DNA from: Escherichia phage JEP8
Direction: 5' to 3' (one strand)
DNA: 64,000 bases
Sequence record: MT764208.1
Position 1 is the stretch's first letter. Each line of letters opens with the position of its first letter. The translations under genes and the position numbers were made by a program. Positions 1,709 to 49,218 of the stretch are shown here, in pieces. The notes beneath the pieces were generated by a model. The model had not been told where the DNA came from, searched no databases, and saw nothing but the letters and a program-made list of their open reading frames with translations.

Positions 1709-3392
1709 TCATTTCAGTGAATCGCCCACGTTTAACCATCTTGAGATGACGGCTAAAATCATCAGGGTTATGGTCACGATGGCTGATAATATACACGTTA
1801 TCATCTAACTTGTCAATGATGGAATCAAGTGCTTTTACGCCTTGAACGTCAGTAGCCCCATCATAGATTTCATCGAGTACCAACAAAGAAATATTAGTAC
1901 CAGATACTTTACCAGCAACATCACGCCATGTAAAGAGCATCGCAAGATCAATACGTGCTTTTTCGCCTTGACTGAATGATGTATACGAAAACGATTCACG
2001 CCCCCGTGATTTGATTGTTTCGTTAAACTCTTCATCTAACGTAAAGATATAATCCGCTTCCATGATCTCCAGATAATAAGCAATTCGATCATTGAAATAT
2101 GGAATATATTTCTTGACGATAGACGCCTTAACACCGGAATCCTTCAACATTTCTGTTACAAATCCGCGATGATATTTTTCAAGAACTAGTTTTGATTTTT
2201 CATTGGTAATCTCTACCAGTTCGTGTTCCAGTTTAGCAAGTTCTTCGGAATTGTCAACCCTTTCTTTTTGTAATTCCTGAATTGCTTTCTGGATCTGTTT
2301 AGCCCGACCTACAGATGCCGTTAAATTAGCTCTCTGTGACTCTATAGCGCGTTTAATTTCCAAGACCTTAGTTTGTGCTGTCTGGAAAGAATTGGCTTTC
2401 TCTGCGTATTCTACGCGCTTCTCGTCAATCAGAGACAGCTTATGTTCTGCTTGTGCTTTTTGCTCGCGCACCGCTTGATCATTACCCTGAATGATCGGTT
2501 GTGTACACGTAGGACAGACACCGCCTTTCTCGTGCATATGGATAACACGATCAAAGTTCTGGATCTGTGCCCCAATCTGTGCGATAGCCGTATTAATTTT
2601 AGCCAATGCCGCGCTGGGATCTTCCGGCATAACAACAGCCAATAGCTCATCGGTCAAGCGAGTTTCTTCGGCTTTAAATGCTTTAGCCGATTCCACCTCT
2701 TTATCATACATATTCTGTAAACGCTGGAGATTCTCGGCACTCGCCTTGCTAGCGTCTTCTATGTACTTTTTATGAGTGTTGATTTGTTGCTGAACGTGAT
2801 TAGCTTTCATTTCCTGCATTTGGATATTCTGGGTAATCTCGCGCACATACGCTTTATTCAGTTTATCCATTTCGCCTAGCGTAGCAATATCAAGCAAATC
2901 CTCGACCAGCTTACGGCGACCCGCTGCCGGAAGACTCATAAACGGAACATAACCCGCAGTGCCTAAAACAACAATCTGCTTAAAGCTGGCTAGGTTCATG
3001 CCTATGATACCTTCAAAATATTCCTGAAAGTCTTTGGTGCTTGCGCTCTCATCGATCTTTTGACCGTCGCGATGCACTTCGAATACTTCCGGCTTTTGTC
3101 CACGTTTAATATAAAATTCTTTCCCGTCCAGTTCAAACCAGACTTCGACTAACAGTTTCTTTTTGTTGACGCTGTTAATCAATTGGCCTTTCTTGATACT
3201 ACGAAACGGTTTACCAAACAATACAAAGCAAAGCGCCTCGATCATTGTTGATTTACCAGCACCGTTAACACCAGTGATCAGTGTCTTTTTGAATCCGTCT
3301 AGCTGAATCTCAACAGGTTCAGCACCCACGCTCATTATATTTTGATAGCGCAAGGTTTTAAAATTTAACTTTGCCATTAAGCCACTCCGCAA
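1695..3392 (-). CDS. 46: Recombination endonuclease subunit gp46 (SbcC/Rad50-like ATPase)
   Basis: 565 aa; Walker A GVNGAGKST, long coiled-coil middle, C-terminal LVLDEIYDGATD; adjacent to gp47 as in T4. Confidence 0.9.
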   Translation of the reverse strand: MRSGLMAKLNFKTLRYQNIMSVGAEPVEIQLDGFKKTLITGVNGAGKSTMIEALCFVLFGKPFRSIKKGQLINSVNKKKLLVEVWFELDGKEFYIKRGQKPEVFEVHRDGQKIDESASTKDFQEYFEGIIGMNLASFKQIVVLGTAGYVPFMSLPAAGRRKLVEDLLDIATLGEMDKLNKAYVREITQNIQMQEMKANHVQQQINTHKKYIEDASKASAENLQRLQNMYDKEVESAKAFKAEETRLTDELLAVVMPEDPSAALAKINTAIAQIGAQIQNFDRVIHMHEKGGVCPTCTQPIIQGNDQAVREQKAQAEHKLSLIDEKRVEYAEKANSFQTAQTKVLEIKRAIESQRANLTASVGRAKQIQKAIQELQKERVDNSEELAKLEHELVEITNEKSKLVLEKYHRGFVTEMLKDSGVKASIVKKYIPYFNDRIAYYLEIMEADYIFTLDEEFNETIKSRGRESFSYTSFSQGEKARIDLAMLFTWRDVAGKVSGTNISLLVLDEIYDGATDVQGVKALDSIIDKLDDNVYIISHRDHNPDDFSRHLKMVKRGRFTEMNVNI

Positions 3393-3621
3393 TCACACAT
3401 TCCATAATATTAAATGCTAACACATCTTCATCAATGTTGTAAACACTTGCAGCCTTCACTTTAACTAGTGTGTCTCTGCGATCTGGCAACATGATCACAT
3501 AATCCAGTGTCGCCGGATCATATGTCATAAAGGGATCAATGTAAATCCCTTTATTCAATGCCAGATATTCGCGAAGACCTTCTATAACCCTGTGTCTAAG
3601 GTAGGTCATCGATAGAATCAT
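3358..3621 (-). CDS. Hypothetical protein
   Basis: 87-aa ORF between gp46 and gp47 (T4 46.1/46.2 position). Confidence 0.4.
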   Translation of the reverse strand: MILSMTYLRHRVIEGLREYLALNKGIYIDPFMTYDPATLDYVIMLPDRRDTLVKVKAASVYNIDEDVLAFNIMECVIAEWLNGKVKF

Positions 3622-4214
3622 TTTAGTTTATGTTCCTCTAAAAATTCTTCAATTTCACCTTGCAGGTCTTCCGCTTGCTGTTCCAGAATATCGCGAAATT
3701 CACCTACAGTCAAGCGGTGATCACATTTCACCAGTCTATGCGGGAGAATATACCCCTTGTACATTGTCTCTGACGCTTCCAGGAATACCCCGCTATGCAT
3801 GACAGAGATCCAACCTGTTAGAGTCAATGGAGTATTCGGAAAATAATATTTGCTGGATTGTTTCCACTGGACGAAAGCACCATATACAATCGGATTATAT
3901 TCACCAACCACACTCTTAATAATAGCTTCTACTTTGTCTTTTACAAATACGCCCATATCCATATTGATCATCAATTCTTGTGGATGTATCACTTTAAGAT
4001 AACGATGATAACCATCATCATAATACAGCTTAACCACTGGCTGACCCCACGTAGATGAAATATTCGCTTTCAGATAACCATAAATCGGATTCTTGTAATG
4101 TGATTGTTTTATCGTGTAGTTATGCAACAGCGTAATAAAATGTTGCATTACCAATTTATCTGGATCAGCCGCGACCATAGTCGTATTCATAATATGTTCC
4201 CCCTTCAATCTCAT
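3618..4214 (-). CDS. Hypothetical protein
   Basis: 198-aa ORF; start uncertain (overlaps upstream ORF by 50 nt). Confidence 0.45.
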   Translation of the reverse strand: MRLKGEHIMNTTMVAADPDKLVMQHFITLLHNYTIKQSHYKNPIYGYLKANISSTWGQPVVKLYYDDGYHRYLKVIHPQELMINMDMGVFVKDKVEAIIKSVVGEYNPIVYGAFVQWKQSSKYYFPNTPLTLTGWISVMHSGVFLEASETMYKGYILPHRLVKCDHRLTVGEFRDILEQQAEDLQGEIEEFLEEHKLK

Positions 4215-4482
4215 ATTGTTTCAGGTCTTCTAAAAGTTCATCCATTGCTTGTTTCAGCACATGACGCAGCGTAAAGTAATAGCTTTCATCAAATTCTATT
4301 TCATCGCGAGGAATAGAGCGAAACTTACACTTAACGGTAGTGTCAGTGAGTCGCTTTTCGAGCATCATCCGAACTTCTTCATGCTCTTTGGAATACCATA
4401 CATCAACGGAGATCCCCTTACGGCGAGCAAACATAGGCAACGCTGCATTAAATTCCATTACTTTTTGTGCAAGTGTTTTCAT
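4165..4482 (-). CDS. Hypothetical protein
   Basis: 105-aa ORF, co-oriented and tightly packed. Confidence 0.4.
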   Translation of the reverse strand: MKTLAQKVMEFNAALPMFARRKGISVDVWYSKEHEEVRMMLEKRLTDTTVKCKFRSIPRDEIEFDESYYFTLRHVLKQAMDELLEDLKQYEIEGGTYYEYDYGRG

Positions 4483-4730
4483 CGTACAGACTCCATAGAC
4501 CCACGAGCAATAACATTCTGGGTAATATCAGCAACCTTACGGGATACGATGGTTGCTAGTTCCAGTCTAGTGATATTGTCTCGGTCGAAAGGAATTTCAT
4601 CATGTGTCCACATCCCGTAATTAGAACGGAAGGATAGCATATGTTGACCATTCCGAACAACCTCAAAAACTCGGATCTTAGTAAACTTCTCTAAACTTGC
4701 GTTAAATTCTTTCAGTGTGTCGGTAATCAT
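4479..4730 (-). CDS. Hypothetical protein
   Basis: 83-aa ORF with SD GGGAGG before ATG. Confidence 0.5.
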   Translation of the reverse strand: MITDTLKEFNASLEKFTKIRVFEVVRNGQHMLSFRSNYGMWTHDEIPFDRDNITRLELATIVSRKVADITQNVIARGSMESVR

Positions 4731-4756
4731 AATAACCTCCCATCAATTTTTTAGAG

Positions 4757-4785
4757 AGTATAACGGGGATTTCTCCCCGCGTCAA
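4757..4785 (-). promoter_or_regulatory. PeSL-like early promoter (TTGACG - GGGG..CCCC hairpin spacer - TATACT)
   Basis: Minus strand reads TTGACG cggggagaaatccccgt TATACT; 17-nt spacer forms a hairpin. Confidence 0.55.
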
Positions 4786-5811
4786 CTAACTTTTTGCGCT
4801 ATTTACTTCGGCTAAAAGCTCATCGGAGATACGCTTAACTGCCGCAAGTTCTTCCGGTTCTAGGTTTTGTTCTTCCAGATATTCATAGACCATCTGAATA
4901 GTGCTTTTAACTTCAATAACACCTGTTTCCTGTGATGCGCTACTCTCCAGCTTATGGACCACTTTTAGCTTGTGTACAACGGCCTCTAACGCGCTTTCTA
5001 ACTTAGTTAACCCATTATCAGCGACCGTTGCAATTAGGCGCACACTAAGCCCTTTAAAGCGTTCTACATCGATTTTATCATCTGACGGGTAAGTGATACG
5101 CACATGATAAGTTTTGTCATTCTGGATAAACTCCTTTTTGTGTGTATCTGTATCGAATACCCAAAAACCACGCGGATCATTTTCGTCGCCAGCCGTTAGT
5201 GTGTATGGTGTACCGATATACGTTACGTTACCGCCATCACTGATAGTATGAAAGTGACCGGAAAACACTTCACGGTATTTCTTGAGGAAGTCCGCGCTAT
5301 AACCTTCGGATTTTAACCCTTTATAGAAATAGTAGCCGGACAATTCCCAATGGCCTACACAATATTCGCTGAATGAATTTTGAATAAACTCTAAAACCTC
5401 GGATTTATTGTCATCACAAAACCACGGGAACAGGTCGAATGATACCCCATCAAAGGTAACTGTTTCCGGCTTATCAATAACCTTAATGCAATCATACTGG
5501 CTTAACACTTCGCGCGGTGCGTTAGGCTGGATCTTATTGCGTTTAAACATATCATGATTCCCGACCGTGATATAACAGGTGATTCCTGCCTCTTCCAGTA
5601 ATGGGATGACCTTAGTACGGTTAAATTTCATGGTTTCATGTGTGATAGCCTTGCGACAATCAAACCAATCCCCTGTTTGAATCCATATCTTAATACCATT
5701 TTCTTTAGAATAATCAACAGCTTTCTTGATCGTGTCTAAAATATACTCATGCACCCACGGATCATCGCCACCGATACCAGTATGCAGATCACCCAAAAGC
5801 AAAATTTTCAT
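4786..5811 (-). CDS. 47: Recombination endonuclease subunit gp47 (SbcD/Mre11-like nuclease)
   Basis: 341 aa; calcineurin-like phosphoesterase motifs GDLH, GDWFD, GNHD, GHFH; SD GAGGAAGAG; pairs with gp46. Confidence 0.9.
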   Translation of the reverse strand: MKILLLGDLHTGIGGDDPWVHEYILDTIKKAVDYSKENGIKIWIQTGDWFDCRKAITHETMKFNRTKVIPLLEEAGITCYITVGNHDMFKRNKIQPNAPREVLSQYDCIKVIDKPETVTFDGVSFDLFPWFCDDNKSEVLEFIQNSFSEYCVGHWELSGYYFYKGLKSEGYSADFLKKYREVFSGHFHTISDGGNVTYIGTPYTLTAGDENDPRGFWVFDTDTHKKEFIQNDKTYHVRITYPSDDKIDVERFKGLSVRLIATVADNGLTKLESALEAVVHKLKVVHKLESSASQETGVIEVKSTIQMVYEYLEEQNLEPEELAAVKRISDELLAEVNSAKS

Positions 5812-43276: not shown

Positions 43277-43831
43277 ATGCTCTTTTCTTTCTTCCCTGCC
43301 ATTGAATACAACGGCAAGATGATTACTGACATTGTGCGCAATTACCGCGCATATTTCAACGCAATAATTTCTGATTATAACATACAAACATATTACATTC
43401 AAGGTAGTCCACGACCGGAACAAGTTGCATATGAAGTATACGGAAACCAACAACTTTATTGGATCTTGCTGATGCTTAATGACGTATACGATCCGTTCCA
43501 TGACTGGATCACCGATCAAGAGACAGCATATGAATCAGCCGAACAACGATATGCAAACGTAGGAGGAAATCAAGTATTATACCACGTTGATATTGACGGA
43601 AACAAGTATTGGAATCTTACCGAATATCCGAAAGGATCAAGCAATTGGTATGATAAAGGGGATATTCATCATCGTCATTTGCAGTTTCAAGGTGCATTAT
43701 CGGCGGTAGACACACTGGAAGATGCGATCCTCCGCAATGAGGAACGACGCAAGATCAAGATCATAGATCCTACACAAATTAAACAATTTATTAACGCATT
43801 CATTCGAGAAATGGAAAAGGCTGATGTGTAA
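43277..43831 (+). CDS. 53: Baseplate wedge protein gp53
   Basis: 184 aa; MLFSFFPAIEY...YYIQGSPRPEQVAYEVYGNQQLYWILLM resembles T4 gp53 as recalled; precedes gp5. Confidence 0.85.
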   Translation: MLFSFFPAIEYNGKMITDIVRNYRAYFNAIISDYNIQTYYIQGSPRPEQVAYEVYGNQQLYWILLMLNDVYDPFHDWITDQETAYESAEQRYANVGGNQVLYHVDIDGNKYWNLTEYPKGSSNWYDKGDIHHRHLQFQGALSAVDTLEDAILRNEERRKIKIIDPTQIKQFINAFIREMEKADV

Positions 43832-43842
43832 GGTGATTAATT

Positions 43843-45642
43843 ATGCTAATGTTTAATAACTCCGTTAAATGGTTTACCGGAATTGTAGAAAACAGGGAAG
43901 ACCCATTAATGCTGGGGCGTGTTCAGGTTAGGATTCATGGTATACATCCCTCGCTATCCGCGCACGGTGACATTCAAGGTCTTCCAACCGAAGATCTATT
44001 ATGGATTACGCCAGTACAAGATATTACAAGCGCGGCGATCTCCGGTATAGGTCAAAGCCCTACTGGTATTGTTGAAGGTTCAATGGTATTTGGTTTGGCT
44101 TTAGATGAACGTTATTTAAACTGCGTTATTCTTGGTACTATTGCCGGACAATATACAGAGAAACCACTCACTACAGAAGGTTTTTGCGACCCTTCTGGTG
44201 CATATCCTCGTTATATTGGTAATGATGTTAATATTCTTGCTCGTGGCGGTATTAACCCAGAAACCGGGCAAACAACAAAACCTGATAGTGTCTATATTCG
44301 AGATGAAAACACTGGAGTTGCAGTAAATCCAGACGACGAGCCATTAGACCAAATTCCGGTTGATGATAATCCTGATTTTACAATAGAAAAAATGCTGCGG
44401 GGCGATGAGGGATATCGCGAGAAATGGTATCTTGATTCAGAAGGATATCCGACAATAGGCATCGGGCATTTGATCATTTATAAGAAAACCAGTGATCTTG
44501 ATATTATCAATAATGAACTTTCTAAGCTGGTAGGGCGTGAAGTTACAAACGGAAGACTTACCGCCGAAGAAGTTAGTAAAGTATTTGCCGACGATATAGA
44601 AAAGACTCGTCGTGATATGCGCAAACATCCACGAATTGCACCTGTCTATAATAAATGTAATGCCTCACGTCGTATGGCATTAGAAAATATGGCGTTTCAA
44701 ATGGGTGTTGGTGGATTGGGTAAATTTAAGAATAGTCTTGCTGCGATGTTAGCGGAAGAATGGAAACAAGCCTATGATGGATTACGTCAATCGGTATGGG
44801 CTAACCAAACTCCAGGACGATCCAGCCGTGTTTCTAAAATTATTCTTACTGGCAACTTAGAATCATATGGCGTAATTGCTCCAAAGAAAGAGGAATCAAT
44901 TTCTGATGATCCGCGAGCACGTTTGAGAAATGCCCGTATTGCTGCCTATAAGACGCAGAGAGCAGAAGAAGACCCAGAAGCACCGTTTACCCCACAAGAC
45001 ACACGAATCATGTTTAAAGAGCCTAAGAGTTCGTATTCTGCAAGGTATCCTTATAACCATGTGTACGAGTCAGAGAGCGGTCATATTATCGAGATTGATG
45101 ATACTCCTTCTCATGAGCGATATCATCGTAAACATCCTTCGGGTACATTTGAAGAAACCAGACCGGACGGAACGAGGGTAGAAAAGATTGAAGGCGATGA
45201 TTATCTGATCGTTAAACAAGGCCGGAAAGTAAACGTTAAGGGTAATTTGCAAGTTGTTGTTGAAGGTGACGCGCAAGTTTATTATATGGGTAATGTGATG
45301 CAAACCGTTGATGGTAACGTCACTGAATTTATTCGTGGTAATGTTAATCAGACCGTTGAAGGTACTGCTAACATGCATGTTGTAGGTGATGTTACCGCTC
45401 AGCTTGACGCTAATTTGACGGCTAACGTCAAGGGTAATGCTGAATTAATGATCGAGGGTAACACTACCGAAACAATTAAAGGTAACTATGATTTAACCGT
45501 TGAGGGTAATTTTAATATGACCGTCAATGGCACTAAATCAGATCAGGTTAATGGTGACTGGTCCCGTAATTGTGGTGCAAGCGTTAAAGATATTGCATCT
45601 GGTACAGTTAAAATTGATGGTAGCCGTATTGATCTTGGGTGA
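43843..45642 (+). CDS. 5: Baseplate hub/central spike protein with lysozyme domain gp5
   Basis: 599 aa; N-terminal OB-like part, T4-lysozyme-like segment (YLDSEGYPTIGIGHLI), C-terminal VxGxxxxxV beta-helix repeats. Confidence 0.9.
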   Translation: MLMFNNSVKWFTGIVENREDPLMLGRVQVRIHGIHPSLSAHGDIQGLPTEDLLWITPVQDITSAAISGIGQSPTGIVEGSMVFGLALDERYLNCVILGTIAGQYTEKPLTTEGFCDPSGAYPRYIGNDVNILARGGINPETGQTTKPDSVYIRDENTGVAVNPDDEPLDQIPVDDNPDFTIEKMLRGDEGYREKWYLDSEGYPTIGIGHLIIYKKTSDLDIINNELSKLVGREVTNGRLTAEEVSKVFADDIEKTRRDMRKHPRIAPVYNKCNASRRMALENMAFQMGVGGLGKFKNSLAAMLAEEWKQAYDGLRQSVWANQTPGRSSRVSKIILTGNLESYGVIAPKKEESISDDPRARLRNARIAAYKTQRAEEDPEAPFTPQDTRIMFKEPKSSYSARYPYNHVYESESGHIIEIDDTPSHERYHRKHPSGTFEETRPDGTRVEKIEGDDYLIVKQGRKVNVKGNLQVVVEGDAQVYYMGNVMQTVDGNVTEFIRGNVNQTVEGTANMHVVGDVTAQLDANLTANVKGNAELMIEGNTTETIKGNYDLTVEGNFNMTVNGTKSDQVNGDWSRNCGASVKDIASGTVKIDGSRIDLG

Positions 45643-45650
45643 GGTAACTA

Positions 45651-46217
45651 ATGGTTGAAATTCTTCCGATGAGTTCAAAATTGGAGGATATCAGCGAGCG
45701 AGAAATCTTTGAGGTGGTGTTCTCTTATAAAGCAACGCCACCGGATGCAAATACCACATACACGATTAAAGAGTTTAAGATCAGCGAGTATCGCCCTAAT
45801 AAGGGCGTTACCGTTGAAGAAACTAAAATATCTGGTGAGTATCGGGATAGTTTTTCGCTTGGCACGGATTCTCTTAAATATATAACGAAAGATAGAATTA
45901 AAAAATCTGCCGGAAGTTTTGATGATTTACCAGATCCAACTACCGCAGATCTATATTATTTTAACGCTCCTACACGTCTACAGGAGGTTTATACTTATAA
46001 AGTCACCCTAACCTATATCCAATCTGTTTCAGAGTCTTCTGGTGGTTCTGGTGAAGGAAATAGTGGTGGTTCCAATAGCCGAGAGGGTGCTGGTGAAACT
46101 AATCCGCCTCCGGTAGTAACCGAACACACAATAGAGAAAGTTTATACTCAAACCGTTTTTGGAAATTGGGATGTGTGGTCGCAGCAACTAAGAGATTATG
46201 TACATAGGGGTGTTTAA
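45651..46217 (+). CDS. Hypothetical protein (gp5.1 position)
   Basis: 188 aa directly after gp5; Gly/Ser-rich linker SSGGSGEGNSGGSNS. Confidence 0.5.
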   Translation: MVEILPMSSKLEDISEREIFEVVFSYKATPPDANTTYTIKEFKISEYRPNKGVTVEETKISGEYRDSFSLGTDSLKYITKDRIKKSAGSFDDLPDPTTADLYYFNAPTRLQEVYTYKVTLTYIQSVSESSGGSGEGNSGGSNSREGAGETNPPPVVTEHTIEKVYTQTVFGNWDVWSQQLRDYVHRGV

Positions 46218-46283
46218 TGGCTGGCGGGTGTCGATGCCCCGCCGTCATAAATAGTTATATAATGATTTAATATGAGGTGTTTT

Positions 46284-47024
46284 ATGATTAAAGTGCATGA
46301 CGATTTCAAAGAACTTTATAATGTATGCTCTGAACGTTTTTATTATGATGAAACGAGCGGAACAATTAGACGAAAATATGATTGTAAGAGCAATCATTAT
46401 AAAGCGGGTGATGTAGTAGGATATAAAAGAAAACAAAAAAGAACAAATAGTGAAGATGATGTGTGCTATCTGTTTACTAAGATTGATGGAGTTTCTTATT
46501 CAATTCAACAAATTGTCTTCTTGCTTACCGACGGATATATACCAAATTGCATCGATCATATTAACAGAGACACACTAGATAATCACCGTGAAAATCTTCG
46601 TGATGCATCGCGAAGCGGAAATGCTCGCAATAAGTGCAAAGTATATAAAAATGGTTTCGCCTCTTCCGATTACATTGGTGTGTCTAAGCGGGGTTCTGGA
46701 TTTAGGTGTCGTATTAGAATAAACCATGTTATTGCATATGATGAAACGTTCGAAAATGAAACATCTGCTGCATATGCATATAACGTAGAATGTATAAAAT
46801 TAGGTGTCAGTGAGTATACCAACTTTAATAAATTTGAAGACGAAGAATCTGTTAGGAAACTTTACGAAAAAGAGAAAGAAAATAAAGAGTTTCAAGAATA
46901 TTGGAAGGGAACACATAAACAGGGTAAAAGATGGGGTGCTAAAGTTAAGAGTGTGCGTTTGGGTACATTCGAAACAAGGGAAGAAGCTAGACTAGCTATA
47001 ATTCGCTACAAAGAGGGGTTTTGA
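46284..47024 (+). CDS. Free-standing HNH homing endonuclease with AP2-like DNA-binding domains
   Basis: Start moved to ATG 46284 after SD GAGGTG; HNH motif [26 protein letters not shown]; two AP2-like segments ([19 protein letters not shown]; [22 protein letters not shown]). Inserted between gp5.1 and gp5.4. Confidence 0.75.
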
Positions 47025-47317
47025 TGGCTGGTTTATCATATGACAAAGCAAAAACTACTGGACATGGTAATTACGGTCCGACAATAATTAATGCAACTCA
47101 ATCTAAGGTATTTGTTGAGGGTATCCCTGTATTAGTCGAAGGAGACCCAATTACACCACACACAAAAACAACAAAGCCTTATGATACACACGGGGGAACT
47201 ACGGTCGCCAGTACCCCGAAAGTATTTGTTACCGGAAAGAAAGCAATTCAAATGGCAGATCGTATTAGCTGTGGCGATACCGTCGCTATGGCATCACCGA
47301 AGGTATTCATAAAATGA
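47021..47317 (+). CDS. 5.4: PAAR-repeat spike tip protein gp5.4
   Basis: 98 aa; size, position before gp6 and repeated G..V..G.P segments fit gp5.4/PAAR. Confidence 0.7.
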
Positions 47318-49218
47318 CAAAGCAAAAGATTACACAAATTCCTGATATTTTTAATGCTGCTACATTCGATGAAATTAAAAGCGCATTAACAGACTGGATG
47401 AGAAACCAGGAAGAATTTAAAGATTTTGATTTTAATGGTGCTGGTATTAACGTATTGATGGACTTGCTCGCATATAACACTCTGTATATTCAGCAATTCG
47501 CTAACGCCGCGCTATATGAATCTTTTATCAGAACTGCAATTAAGCGTAGTTCAGTTGTTCAAGCCGCGCAAGATTTAGGATATTTGCCAGCAAGTAAAAC
47601 TAGTGCATCGACTACAATTATGTTGCACGTAACACATCCTCGAAATCCGGCAAGTATTCGAATCCCACGAGGAACTAAATTTATTGCAAGTGTGGACCGC
47701 CAGACGTCTTATACGTTTGTTACTACAGAAGACGTTGTGAGCGTTTTAGGTTCAAATGGTTTATATACGCCTATGCTTAAAGTCGCGCAAGGTCGTATTG
47801 TTCGTACAGAAATGTTATTTGATCCGAAGAAACAAATTCTGATCCGCGATCCAGATATTGACCGCGCTCAGGTTAAGTTGTGGGTAGACGGTGCTGAATG
47901 GAAAGACTGGACGCGAGAAAGTATTGTTAATGCAACTGGCGCTAGTAATATTTTCTATATGCGTGAAACCGTAGACGGTCATACCGAAATCTTCTTTGGT
48001 GAAGGTGAATCAACTTTATCTGCTGCTGGCGGTGCACTGGAAGCAAATTATATTGGTGGACTTAAGCCGTCAACTGGTGCTAATATCGTAATTGAATATA
48101 TTAGCACTAAAGGCGCGGAAGCAAACGGATCTGTCAATTTCACATACGCGGATACCCTTGCATCTATCTCTATTGTTAAAATTATTGAGAATCCGACAAA
48201 TGATCGTGATTATGTCGGTGCAGATGGTGGTGGTGATCCTGAATCAATCGAACGTATTCGTGAACTTGCTCCGGTAATGCGTGAATCTCAGCGTCGTTGT
48301 GTTACTGCTTCCGACTATGAGGCTTTTGTGTCTAGCCGTTTTGGTAGTATTGTTCAGGCGGTACAATGTTTCACCGACCGAGAAAAACCGGGTTATGCTT
48401 TTGTTGCGGTTAAGCCTAAATCTGGCTTGCGCTTGACAACTGTTCAAAAAGAAGATATGCGGGATTATCTGGCAAAATATAATCTTGCCCCTATCACGCC
48501 GAGCATCATTGACCCTAACTATCTGTATATTAAACAGAATATTAAAGTTTCCTATTCAATCAATGACTTGTCAGAATCAGAGCAGTGGTTGCGCGGTGCG
48601 GTTATTGATCAGATTGATGCATATTATACCGACGAAGTGGAAATTTTTAACCAGACCTTTAGTAAGTCTAAAATGCTTGCGCGTATTGACAAAGCTGATG
48701 TATCTGTGATAGGTTCTAGTGCAGAAATCGAGATGGTGCGAGAGATCGACAACTTCTATAAAGCACCGATGGCTGGAATCAAGTTTTTAAACCAGTATAA
48801 GAGCGGAATCAAGTCTAGTTCATTCAACTTCGAAAAGGACGACAAGCAATATCCGATCCATTATGTAAGTACAGAAATGAACAAAGAATCCGGTTTAGCT
48901 AAATTGCTGGTTGGACCTTTCCCTGTTGGTTCTGCAATCGCTTTACCGCACTATTCCGGCACTGATTTTGATAAAGAGGTTATCGACGGTGCAGACCTAT
49001 ACTTTGAGGTTGGAGAGGTTCAGCATTATGAAGACCTTATTTCATGGGATCTGGGTAAACTGAATATCAATAGCGATCGCTTTACGGGTTCATATATTGA
49101 GTTGACAGCTAAACCGATTGCTGATAACATCTTTACTAAAGACGGTTCTTTGATCGTGTTTGAAAACGATCTCCGTCCTCAGTACACAACTATTAGTCTG
49201 GAGGCAATTGCTCAATGA
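47314..49218 (+). CDS. 6: Baseplate wedge protein gp6
   Basis: 634 aa; N-terminus [54 protein letters not shown] resembles T4 gp6 as recalled. Confidence 0.88.

What the first reader, a model, noticed from the sequence alone, without database searches (positions are those of the whole stretch)
46230..47024. HNH-AP2 homing endonuclease inserted in the gp5-gp6 baseplate interval
A free-standing HNH endonuclease with AP2-type DNA-binding segments sits between the gp5.1-position ORF and gp5.4. An upstream hairpin (GCGGG..CCCGC) and a near-late-promoter ATAAATAG precede it. It marks a mobile insertion that may drive marker exclusion in co-infections.
Basis: partly seen in the sequence, partly recalled or inferred. 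Interest (0 to 1): 0.45.

Follow-up and report, generated by a model that had tools for sequence, protein, structure and literature searches.

The report
Mobile HNH endonuclease gene in phage
A selfish "homing endonuclease" gene sits between two baseplate genes of an RB49-like (T4-type) coliphage. It is an ordinary, already annotated kind of phage mobile element, but comparison with relatives shows where it probably cuts and how its carrier is protected.

Summary
Window 46284-47024 (+) encodes an intact 246-aa HNH_3 endonuclease with two AP2-like DNA-binding modules. It lies between gp5.1 and the PAAR spike-tip gene gp5.4 of a Krischvirus (RB49-like) phage.

- **Upstream signals:** a G/C-tract hairpin (46217-46248) and a late-promoter-like CATAAATA (46246-46253) precede the gene.
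- **Polymorphic insert:** the 807-bp insert is in only five other sequenced isolates and four metagenome contigs, always at this site. 44 database records have the empty junction, where the gp5.1 stop overlaps the gp5.4 start.
- **Selection:** catalytic residues are intact and the copies evolve under purifying selection (pN/pS 0.14).
- **Recoded tract:** every carrier has a recoded stretch in the first 61 bp of gp5.4 (47032-47084), with 16 substitutions, 12 of them silent. These are the only fixed differences from empty-site phages within -1100 to +1250 bp. This is the pattern known for T4 mobE, so it points to the likely target and self-immunity site.
- **Other endonuclease genes nearby:** two further HNH-AP2 genes use the same or the next junction in sister phages.

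The gene was already listed as a GEC-3S-specific homing endonuclease in 2012. Cleavage and marker exclusion remain untested. Overall this is ordinary and of low-to-moderate interest.

The parts
45651..46217 (+). gp5.1-like gene (upstream neighbour). In empty-site phages its TAA stop overlaps the gp5.4 ATG (TAATG).
   Evidence: PHROG 1168, E 8e-54; annotated as 5.1 in RB49 and Phi1; junction alignment.
46179..46188 (+). Left-flank polymorphic decamer (gp5.1 nt 529-538). The window has the RB49-like TCGCAGCAAC. The variant AGTAAACAGT is in 6/10 HEG-A copies, 5/5 HEG-B loci examined and 1/15 empty sites.
   Evidence: Fisher test for HEG-B against empty sites, p 4e-4.
46207..46224 (+). Left copy of the imperfect direct repeat GGGGTGTTTAATGGCTGG. 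This is the native gp5.1 end plus the first 8 nt of gp5.4, and it marks the left edge of the 807-bp insert.
   Evidence: junction spacing is 868 nt in carriers against 61 nt in empty sites.
46217..46248 (+). G-tract/C-tract stem-loop (core GGCGGG...CCCGCC, extended by AUGGC/GUCAU). It buries the leftover gp5.4 start codon. There is no T-run after it.
   Evidence: Fold (z = -2.8). P(unpaired) of the leftover AUG is 0.17. No intrinsic terminator found. The same kind of stem-loop occurs at other intergenic sites in the window. PeSL stem-loops of RB49/phi1 attenuate transcription (PMC2839356).
46217..46270 (+). Vestigial gp5.4 start now opening a 17-codon ORF (MAGGCRCPAVINSYIMI*). It ends 3 nt before the endonuclease gene's Shine-Dalgarno.
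   Evidence: Read directly. Conserved in all six isolate copies apart from one silent change in Whisky.
46246..46253 (+). Late-promoter-like CATAAATA (7/8 of T4 TATAAATA; the deviation is at -13).
   Evidence: Position and spacing compared with the two perfect sites in the window. The T at -13 is poorly conserved in RB49-type late promoters (PMC1524935). Function not tested.
46274..46279 (+). Shine-Dalgarno GAGGTG, 4 nt before the ATG at 46284.
   Evidence: Predicted accessibility is similar on read-through and late-promoter transcripts.
46284..47024 (+). HNH-AP2 homing endonuclease gene ('HEG-A'), 246 aa plus a TGA that overlaps the gp5.4 ATG.
   Evidence: 98% identical to GEC-3S ORF137 and its counterparts. 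pN/pS 0.14.
46506..46631 (+). HNH (beta-beta-alpha-metal) nuclease motif, aa 75-116: [28 protein letters not shown]91/H92/N104/N113 correspond to I-HmuI D74/H75/N87/N96.
   Evidence: Pfam HNH_3. D91, H92 and N116 are invariant and N100, N104 and N113 nearly invariant across 43 relatives. Alignment to 1u3e.
46656..46826 (+). AP2-like module 1 (aa 125-181).
   Evidence: Aligns to the family's SSxYxGVS...AAxAYN consensus. BLASTP to the TEM1 AP2 domain, E 3e-4. Predicted beta-beta-beta-alpha at aa 133-173.
46896..47021 (+). AP2-like module 2 (aa 205-246), short at its C-terminal end.
   Evidence: Pfam AP2 17 bits, sub-threshold, at aa 214-244. BLASTP to TEM1, E 2e-4. Aligns to the second AP2 of P0003. 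Predicted beta-beta-beta-alpha at aa 210-243 with pLDDT 80-89.
47015..47031 (+). Right copy of the direct repeat, GGGGTTTTGATGGCTGG, inside the last codons of the endonuclease gene. It supplies the Shine-Dalgarno and the stop/start overlap (TGATG) for gp5.4.
47024..47317 (+). gp5.4 PAAR spike-tip gene (downstream neighbour and presumed target gene).
   Evidence: Pfam PAAR_motif, E 2e-10; annotated as 5.4 in RB49.
47032..47084 (+). Carrier-specific recoded tract in gp5.4 (nt 9-61). It has 16 substitutions relative to every empty-site phage: 12 silent third-position changes, one whole-codon swap (P18G) and I21V. Proposed self-immunity/target region.
   Evidence: These are the only fixed differences within -1100 to +1250 bp. 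Database-wide, the tract occurs only in the HEG-A records and KFS-EC, while 49 records carry the RB49-type tract. Fisher 10/10 against 0/15, p 3e-7.

Best explanation
This is a free-standing homing endonuclease gene of the HNH-AP2 class. It is inserted as an 807-bp cassette at the gp5.1/gp5.4 junction of a Krischvirus (RB49-like) phage.

**Shown**
- The ORF is intact, and the I-HmuI-type catalytic residues are present.
- Two AP2-like DNA-binding modules follow the nuclease motif.
- The gene evolves under purifying selection.
- It is present in a minority of otherwise collinear phages that are about 97% identical, and always at the same site.
- The cassette carries its own stem-loop, a late-promoter-like box and a Shine-Dalgarno. 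It ends with a copy of the Shine-Dalgarno and stop/start overlap that gp5.4 needs.
- All carriers share a 53-bp recoded stretch at the start of gp5.4. It is absent from every empty-site phage.

**Inferred (mechanism)**
- Late in a mixed infection the enzyme is made from its own late promoter.
- Its AP2 modules and N-terminal region bind the empty-site allele around the gp5.1/gp5.4 junction and the first ~60 bp of gp5.4.
- The HNH domain nicks or cuts there.
- Recombinational repair from the carrier genome copies the cassette and the adjacent recoded tract into the recipient. This is homing with short co-conversion, that is, localised marker exclusion.
- The carrier is protected because the duplicated junction at the 3' end of the insert, which would otherwise rebuild the target, is followed by the recoded tract.
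- The upstream stem-loop most likely attenuates read-through from gp5/gp5.1 and hides the leftover gp5.4 start codon. The late-promoter box would then restore transcription into the endonuclease gene and the downstream baseplate genes.
For: - **Domain and catalytic evidence:**
- **Polymorphic insertion at one site:**
- **Empty junction in distant relatives:** the junction is tight (TAATG or 1-4 nt) in more distant T4-like phages too, so empty is the ancestral state.
- **Foreign composition:** GC 34.8% against about 41% in the flanks.
- **Purifying selection:** 8 non-synonymous against 14 synonymous differences, pN/pS 0.14, binomial p 1e-5.
- **Recoded tract:** divergence is 25.9% between carriers and empties in gp5.4 nt 1-62, against 0.5% in the rest of the gene. 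There are 16 fixed sites and no others in about 2.3 kb. Association is perfect in the whole phage collection.
- **Mixed left flanks:** carriers have at least four different left-flank haplotypes within 40 bp of the insert, so the cassette sits in mixed backgrounds.
- **Promoter spacing:** it matches the window's bona fide late promoters, and relaxed -13 is documented for RB49 (PMC1524935).
- **Direct precedent:** T4 MobE is a free-standing HNH enzyme that nicks the 5' end of the adjacent downstream gene. mobE-carrying phages are protected by polymorphisms there (PMC2790892). General behaviour of T4 seg/mob genes: PMC2988022.
Against: - No cleavage, nicking or inheritance data exist for this enzyme or any close relative. 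The nearest other cluster is below 50% identity.
- Many free-standing T4 endonucleases cut hundreds of bp from their gene (PMC2988022), so the recoded tract could be hitch-hiking donor DNA rather than the target.
- Nucleotide diversity of the cassette among carriers (1.1%) is no lower than that of the flanks (1.2-1.8%), so there is no sign of a very recent sweep.
- The third HNH-AP2 gene, in Whisky, has no recoded tract in the first 150 nt of gp6, so recoding is not universal for these elements.
- The promoter box deviates from consensus with C at -13, where A or T is usual. It is unverified.
- AP2 is below Pfam's threshold, and Foldseek E-values were not significant.
Confidence: 0.7

Rival explanations
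1. The enzyme is an active homing endonuclease, but the recoded tract is not its target. The enzyme cuts elsewhere, possibly hundreds of bp away as SegF and SegG do. The 53-bp tract is just the stub of donor-phage DNA that came in with the cassette and stays linked because it adjoins it.
For: - Free-standing T4 endonucleases often cleave far from their gene (PMC2988022).
- The tract's divergence (16 nt and 2 aa changes in 21 codons) is about what a species-level relative shows. The metagenomic relative L007 differs from RB49 at 17 nt in the same stretch.
- KFS-EC carries the tract without HEG-A.
Against: - No other site within -1100 to +1250 bp is fixed between carriers and empties. A sequence-based self-immunity site, if there is one, must therefore lie in the tract or beyond 1 kb.
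- The left flank has recombined freely up to within 30 bp of the insert. The tract has never been separated from the cassette in 10 copies.
- No sampled lineage is the evident donor.
Confidence: 0.17
2. The gene is a no-longer-mobile relic. It is retained because deleting it would remove the Shine-Dalgarno and start context of gp5.4 and a late promoter for the downstream baseplate genes.
For: - The cassette does supply gp5.4's Shine-Dalgarno and stop/start overlap, and a promoter-like box.
- T4 offers precedents for endonuclease genes retained because they embed host promoters (PMC2988022).
- Cassette diversity is similar to flank diversity.
Against: - All ten copies are full length.
- Catalytic residues are intact.
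- pN/pS of 0.14 indicates selection on the protein itself.
- A precise deletion between the 17-bp direct repeats would restore a working junction, so retention is not forced.
Confidence: 0.08
3. The cassette was placed and spreads by ordinary or stem-loop-mediated (PeSL-type) recombination. The HNH-AP2 protein serves the phage in another role, such as a DNA-binding regulator or a nuclease used against competing phages.
For: - The stem-loop is of the G-tract/C-tract kind that Arbiol et al. link to modular shuffling in RB49 and phi1 (PMC2839356).
- Such stem-loops are common at intergenic sites in the window.
- AP2 domains can act as regulators.
Against: - There is only one stem-loop, not a flanking pair, and no sigma-70-type promoter next to it.
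- The site is in the conserved baseplate module, not a hyperplastic region.
- The carrier-specific recoding of the adjacent gene is what a site-specific nuclease predicts and what a regulator does not.
Confidence: 0.05

Closest known systems
GEC-3S ORF137 (BN201_0137, 'Putative HNH homing endonuclease') and its copies in Whisky, G2494, Skers and W115
   Same: 98% amino-acid identity, the same 246-aa length, and the same insertion site and flanks. It was listed in 2012 as one of two homing endonuclease genes unique to GEC-3S within the RB49 group (PMC3528706).
   Different: The window copy has three private substitutions (F61C, E83D, D147N) and an RB49-like left flank. No target, immunity tract or activity has been described for any copy.
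HNH-AP2 homing endonuclease class (Magnani et al. 2004; RB49 ORF040c, RB43/RB16/JSE members tabulated by Petrov et al. 2010)
   Same: An N-terminal HNH_3 nuclease followed by AP2 DNA-binding domain(s), free-standing in T4-related genomes.
   Different: It is a separate lineage: no other cluster scores below E 1e-30, and relatives are at most about 48% identical over partial stretches. Its own AP2 modules are diverged, sub-threshold in Pfam, with the second one shortened.
T4 MobE (free-standing HNH endonuclease between nrdA and nrdB)
   Same: A free-standing HNH gene lies immediately upstream of its target gene. The target is in the 5' end of that downstream gene, and carriers are protected by clustered polymorphisms there (PMC2790892). 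The window shows the same layout with gp5.4.
   Different: MobE is promoter-less, is regulated by an internal terminator and lacks AP2 domains. Its nicking was shown experimentally, whereas activity here is inferred.
I-HmuI (PDB 1u3e), the structurally characterised HNH_3-type nicking homing endonuclease
   Same: The family profile matches it at E 8e-10. D74/H75/N87/N96 have counterparts D91/H92/N104/N113.
   Different: I-HmuI is intron-encoded and uses different DNA-binding modules. Pairwise similarity to the window protein is weak (E 0.03).
PeSL cassettes of RB49/phi1 (promoter-early stem-loops)
   Same: A G-tract/C-tract stem-loop sits next to a promoter at the edge of a variable gene (PMC2839356).
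   Different: The promoter here is late-type, not sigma-70 type. The element is single and lies in the conserved baseplate module.

Membership tests
HNH / His-Me finger nucleases (Pfam HNH_3, I-HmuI type) | Sequence match above the curated threshold | tested here: met
   HNH_3 31.6 bits against a cut-off of 24.8. All 43 aligned relatives match HNH_3.
HNH / His-Me finger nucleases (Pfam HNH_3, I-HmuI type) | Catalytic Asp-His, structural Asn and metal-ligand Asn present | tested here: met
   D91, H92, N104 and N113 are conserved in the family alignment and align to I-HmuI D74/H75/N87/N96. The only change at the H92 codon among copies is silent.
HNH / His-Me finger nucleases (Pfam HNH_3, I-HmuI type) | Metal-dependent DNA nicking or cleavage | not testable with these tools
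   Needs purified protein or in vivo mapping.
AP2 DNA-binding domain | Pfam AP2 match above the gathering score for this protein | tested here: not met
   17.2-17.3 bits against 33.3.
AP2 DNA-binding domain | Homology to solved AP2 domains at profile level, and a three-strand-plus-helix fold | tested here: met
   The family profile hits 7wq5, 7et4, 5wx9 and 1gcc (E 1e-17 to 1e-7), and 30/43 relatives pass Pfam AP2 at E <= 0.01. Both modules align to TEM1 AP2. The model shows two beta-beta-beta-alpha units and its top Foldseek hits are AP2 domains. The model has moderate confidence (pLDDT 67) and the Foldseek E-values are 0.04-0.2.
Free-standing homing endonuclease genes of T4-type phages (seg/mob-like behaviour) | Intergenic ORF present in some and absent from other otherwise collinear genomes, at a fixed site | tested here: met
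   Ten carriers against 44 empty-junction records. The flanks are 97-98% identical.
Free-standing homing endonuclease genes of T4-type phages (seg/mob-like behaviour) | Carrier genomes differ from recipient genomes at the nearby target (self-immunity polymorphisms) | tested here: inconclusive
   A carrier-specific recoded tract exists next to the insert. That it is the target has not been shown.
Free-standing homing endonuclease genes of T4-type phages (seg/mob-like behaviour) | Site-specific cleavage of the endonuclease-less allele, and biased inheritance with co-conversion in mixed infection | not testable with these tools
   Requires cleavage assays and phage crosses.
I-TevI/segB/Aeh1-mobE type translational control (hairpin sequesters the RBS on early/middle transcripts) | The Shine-Dalgarno is paired in read-through transcripts and freed in late-promoter transcripts | tested here: not met
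   Mean P(unpaired) of the Shine-Dalgarno is 0.35-0.43 on read-through RNAs and 0.23-0.43 on late-promoter RNAs. The hairpin lies upstream of the Shine-Dalgarno.
PeSL (promoter-early stem-loop) cassette | Sigma-70-type early promoter joined to the stem-loop | tested here: not met
   No sigma-70-like site in 46218-46283. Only the stem-loop type matches.

The most novel reading that the evidence does not exclude
The gp5.1/gp5.4/gp6 junctions of Krischvirus phages may be a site contested by three different HNH-AP2 endonuclease genes. Two of them would have their own adjacent immunity tract and would displace one another.

- **HEG-A** (this gene) is always linked to the recoded gp5.4 nt 9-61.
- **HEG-B** (179 aa, 31% identical) is inserted 17 bp upstream of the gp5.1 stop in KFS-EC, Makalu_003, G5211, G37-3 and MIZ4/5. 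It is always linked to a gp5.1 nt 529-538 variant.
- **Mixed genotypes exist.** 6/10 HEG-A genomes also carry the left variant. KFS-EC carries HEG-B with the HEG-A-type right tract and junction. ECD7 is empty but carries the left variant.

These combinations would be footprints of reciprocal invasion and of doubly immune alleles. On this reading the window phage (HEG-A with an RB49-like left tract) is predicted to be sensitive to HEG-B.
Probability: 0.3. Interest if true: 0.5.

Novelty: already known. Interest (0 to 1): 0.27.

Why it matters
As an element it changes little. HNH-AP2 homing endonuclease genes in T4-related phages have been catalogued since 2004-2010, and this very gene was reported for GEC-3S in 2012.

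What the comparison adds is practical. It gives a precise, testable prediction of the recognition and immunity region (the RB49-type against the carrier-type first 61 bp of gp5.4), and no enzyme of this class in the T4-related phages was found to be characterised in the papers consulted. It also provides a natural set of genotypes: empty, HEG-A, HEG-B, HEG-B with the A-tract, and HEG-A with HEG-C. Competition between selfish nucleases at one locus could be measured with these in crosses.

For users of Krischvirus phages in therapy cocktails, it flags a locus where co-infecting relatives may convert each other's baseplate region.

Tried and rejected
- **Single-sequence PDB search:** only chance hits, E >= 0.28.
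- **Single-sequence AlphaFold model:** useless, pLDDT 37.5.
- **Word-indexed homologue search:** only 5 proteins. The exhaustive representative search showed a huge superfamily but no close cluster.
- **IMG/VR scan with gp5.4:** only 10 loci, none a new carrier.
- **Donor of the recoded tract:** eight more distant T4-like gp5.4 genes were compared. None is closer to the carrier type than to the RB49 type.
- **Intrinsic terminator and sigma-70 promoter scans:** nothing around the hairpin.
- **Rfam:** no match in 45600-47400 at E <= 1.
- **RBS sequestration by the hairpin:** tested and rejected.
- **Internal duplication of the two AP2 modules:** not detectable by BLASTP, E 0.22. The hhalign run against A3 only re-found the query itself, so it was uninformative.
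- **Paralogues in the window:** none.
- **Literature:** searches for a published description of this junction beyond the GEC-3S table found none.
- **Magnani et al. 2004:** could not be opened. Statements about it rest on citing papers.
- **Alignment-seeded homologue search for a deep AlphaFold alignment:** judged not worth its cost, because profile evidence already settled the domain question.
Full report
**What is there.** The window is a Krischvirus (RB49-like, T4-type) coliphage. It is about 97.4% identical to GEC-3S over 24 kb and identical to no record in the phage collection.

The gene order around the finding is:
- gp53, 43277-43831
- gp5 hub/lysozyme, 43843-45642
- gp5.1-like, 45651-46217
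- the ORF in question
- PAAR spike-tip gp5.4, 47024-47317
- gp6, 47314-49218

The ORF runs to 47024. Its likely start is the ATG at 46284 (246 aa), which has a GAGGTG Shine-Dalgarno 4 nt upstream and is the start annotated in all five deposited homologues.

**Protein.** Pfam HNH_3 passes its threshold (31.6 against 24.8 bits) and PHROG 99 'HNH endonuclease' scores E 1e-39.

An exhaustive search of 1.84 billion representatives finds 15,592 relatives at E <= 1e-3. Only the protein's own cluster scores below 1e-30, so this is an isolated lineage of a very large family.

In an alignment of 43 relatives, D91, H92 and N116 are invariant, and N100, N104, L105, R106 and N113 are nearly so. These residues align to D74/H75/N87/N96 of the solved nicking endonuclease I-HmuI.

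AP2 is below Pfam's threshold for this protein (17 bits against 33), so I tested it in other ways:
- The family profile hits solved plant AP2/ERF domains (7wq5 E 1e-17, 7et4 E 1e-12, 5wx9, 1gcc), and 30 of 43 relatives match Pfam AP2.
- Residues 125-181 and 216-243 each align to the TEM1 AP2 domain (E 3e-4 and 2e-4).
- The second module aligns to the second AP2 of a homologue with the same HNH-AP2-AP2 layout.
- A 6-sequence AlphaFold model (pLDDT 67) shows two beta-beta-beta-alpha units. Its best Foldseek matches are the double-AP2 protein WRI1 and the TEM1 AP2 domain. Probabilities are 0.89-0.99, but the E-values are not significant.

I accept 'HNH-AP2', with two diverged AP2-like modules, the second one short.

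**Signals upstream.**
- *Stem-loop.* The 66-nt spacer begins with a stable stem-loop (46217-46248; core GGCGGG/CCCGCC; z = -2.8). No T-run follows, so it is not a canonical intrinsic terminator, and it matches no Rfam family.
- *Related stem-loops.* G-tract/C-tract stem-loops of this kind sit at several other intergenic sites in the window. In RB49 and phi1 they were shown to attenuate transcription (PMC2839356).
- *Promoter box.* CATAAATA at 46246-46253 matches 7/8 of the T4 late consensus. It lies 38 nt before the ATG. The two perfect TATAAATA boxes on this strand lie 40 and 35 nt before late-gene starts. The deviating -13 position is poorly conserved in RB49-type late promoters, although A or T is usual there rather than C (PMC1524935).
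- *No RBS sequestration.* Folding of read-through and late-promoter transcripts shows no difference in Shine-Dalgarno accessibility, so this is not an I-TevI-type RBS-sequestering hairpin.
- *Leftover start codon.* The hairpin does bury a leftover gp5.4 start codon (P unpaired 0.17). That codon now opens a 17-codon ORF ending 3 nt before the Shine-Dalgarno.

**Is it a mobile insertion?** Yes.
- The same gene (98% aa identity) is in GEC-3S, Whisky, G2494, Skers and W115, and in four metagenome contigs. It is always between gp5.1 and gp5.4.
- 44 records in the phage collection have the empty junction, where the gp5.1 TAA overlaps the gp5.4 ATG.
- More distant T4-like phages also have a tight junction, so empty is the ancestral state.
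- The insert is 807 bp and is bounded by an imperfect 17-18-bp direct repeat: GGGGTGTTTAATGGCTGG at 46207-46224 and GGGGTTTTGATGGCTGG at 47015-47031. The cassette's last codons therefore recreate the Shine-Dalgarno and stop/start overlap that gp5.4 normally gets from gp5.1.
- Its GC content is 34.8% against about 41% in the flanks.
- Six isolate copies differ at 22 coding sites, 8 non-synonymous and 14 synonymous (pN/pS 0.14, binomial p 1e-5). All ten copies are full length.

**Where it probably acts.** I aligned 25, later 30, Krischvirus loci.
- *The tract.* All ten carriers share a distinct haplotype in gp5.4 nt 9-61 (47032-47084). It has 16 substitutions relative to every empty-site phage: 12 silent third-position changes in 12 codons, one whole-codon swap (CCA to GGT, P18G) and I21V.
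- *Divergence.* Divergence between carriers and empties is 25.9% in nt 1-62 and 0.5% in the rest of gp5.4.
- *Fixed differences.* Within 1100 bp to the left and 1250 bp to the right, these 16 sites are the only ones with no allele shared between the two groups.
- *Database-wide.* The carrier tract occurs only in the HEG-A records and KFS-EC. The RB49-type tract occurs in 49 records.
- *Left flank.* It is mixed right up to about 30 bp from the insert, with at least four haplotypes among carriers.

This is the pattern described for T4 MobE. That free-standing HNH enzyme nicks the 5' end of the adjacent downstream gene, and its carrier genomes are protected by clustered polymorphisms there (PMC2790892).

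My reading is as follows. The target spans the gp5.1/gp5.4 junction and the start of gp5.4. Because the cassette must duplicate the junction to keep gp5.4 expressed, a near-target is rebuilt at its 3' end. The recoded tract is what makes that copy, and hence the carrier, immune. It is also the minimal co-converted flank.

This step is inference. The alternative is that the tract is merely hitch-hiking donor DNA and the cut lies elsewhere. That cannot be excluded, because many T4 free-standing enzymes cut at a distance (PMC2988022) and no donor lineage was identified.

The interval is a hot spot for these elements.
- *HEG-B.* A different HNH-AP2 gene (179 aa, 31% identical, E 9e-15) occupies the junction in KFS-EC, Makalu_003, G5211, G37-3 and MIZ4/5. 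It is inserted 17 bp upstream of the gp5.1 stop.
- *Its linked variant.* All five HEG-B loci examined carry a variant decamer at gp5.1 nt 529-538, which is found in only 1 of 15 empties (p 4e-4).
- *Mixed genotypes.* Six of ten HEG-A genomes carry that left variant too, but the window does not. KFS-EC combines HEG-B with the HEG-A-type right junction and tract.
- *HEG-C.* Whisky carries a third HNH-AP2 gene (184 aa) between gp5.4 and gp6, with no recoding in the first 150 nt of gp6.

These combinations fit reciprocal invasion by competing endonuclease genes with separate immunity tracts. I rate that only about 0.3.

**Comparison with what is known, and verdict.** HNH-AP2 genes are a recognised class of homing endonuclease genes in T4-related phages. 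This particular gene is annotated 'putative HNH homing endonuclease' in GenBank. It was listed in 2012 as ORF137, one of two homing endonuclease genes unique to GEC-3S within the RB49 group (PMC3528706).

The finding is therefore correct but already known in kind and in instance. What is new here is comparative: the junction anatomy, the carrier-specific recoded tract as a predicted target and immunity site, and the three-gene hot spot. All of these are of the expected type for such elements. Activity, homing and marker exclusion remain untested. Interest is low to moderate.

Noticed in passing
L004 (KFS-EC) 2513-3052; also L018, L019, L020 at 2513-3052 and L037 (MIZ4) at 956-1495: A second, different HNH_3+AP2 gene (179 aa, 31% identical to the window's) occupies the same gp5.1/gp5.4 junction in six sister phages. 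It is inserted 17 bp upstream of the gp5.1 stop and rewrites the last codons of gp5.1. It is always linked to the gp5.1 nt 529-538 variant AGTAAACAGT.
   Followed up: partly
L004 (KFS-EC) 3040-3130: KFS-EC is chimeric. It has the 179-aa gene, followed by the GGGGTTTTGATGG junction and the recoded gp5.4 tract that otherwise occur only with the 246-aa gene. This suggests one element replaced the other.
   Followed up: partly
L003 (Whisky) 2823-3377: Whisky carries a third HNH_3+AP2 gene (184 aa; HNH_3 E 2e-10, AP2 E 8e-7) between gp5.4 and gp6, in addition to the 246-aa gene. The last ~10 nt of gp5.4 are altered, but the first 150 nt of gp6 are unchanged.
   Followed up: partly
L005 (IMG/VR contig of 164706 bp, the same length as phage ECD7), around 2960-2970: This is an empty gp5.1/gp5.4 junction that nevertheless carries the left-flank variant AGTAAACAGT. 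It is the only one of 15 empty sites to do so. It may be a footprint of a lost or never co-converted endonuclease gene.
   Followed up: no
window 46217-46270: The duplicated gp5.4 start codon, overlapping the gp5.1 stop, opens a 17-codon ORF that runs through the hairpin and the promoter box and stops 3 nt before the endonuclease gene's Shine-Dalgarno. It could relay translational coupling on read-through transcripts, or it could be meaningless.
   Followed up: partly
window 4765, 12211, 15307, 18437, 21911, 31026, 37087, 61381, 62357 (start positions): G-tract/C-tract inverted repeats (GGGG...CCCC type) recur in the window. The two checked against the ORF list (61381 and 62357) lie between late genes. 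They resemble the PeSL stem-loops described for RB49 and phi1.
   Followed up: no
window 43843-45642 region (gp5 3' 1100 bp) compared across loci: Nucleotide diversity among empty-site phages is much higher in the 3' 1100 bp before gp5.1 (5.8%) than in gp5.1 or gp5.4 (about 1% and 0.5%). This suggests a mosaic or divergent segment in gp5.
   Followed up: no
L020 (G37-3) 3358-5260: gp6 is annotated as two overlapping ORFs (3358-5007 and 4970-5260) in G37-3. This is either a frameshift or a sequencing error.
   Followed up: no
One search hits H47/H49 (phages E26 and 011D4) and H55/H64-H70: Other Krischvirus genomes hold about 35%-identical HNH homologues elsewhere. In E26 and 011D4 the match lies under features annotated 'Fis family transcriptional regulator | loader of DNA helicase', so it may be unannotated or mis-annotated.
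   Followed up: no
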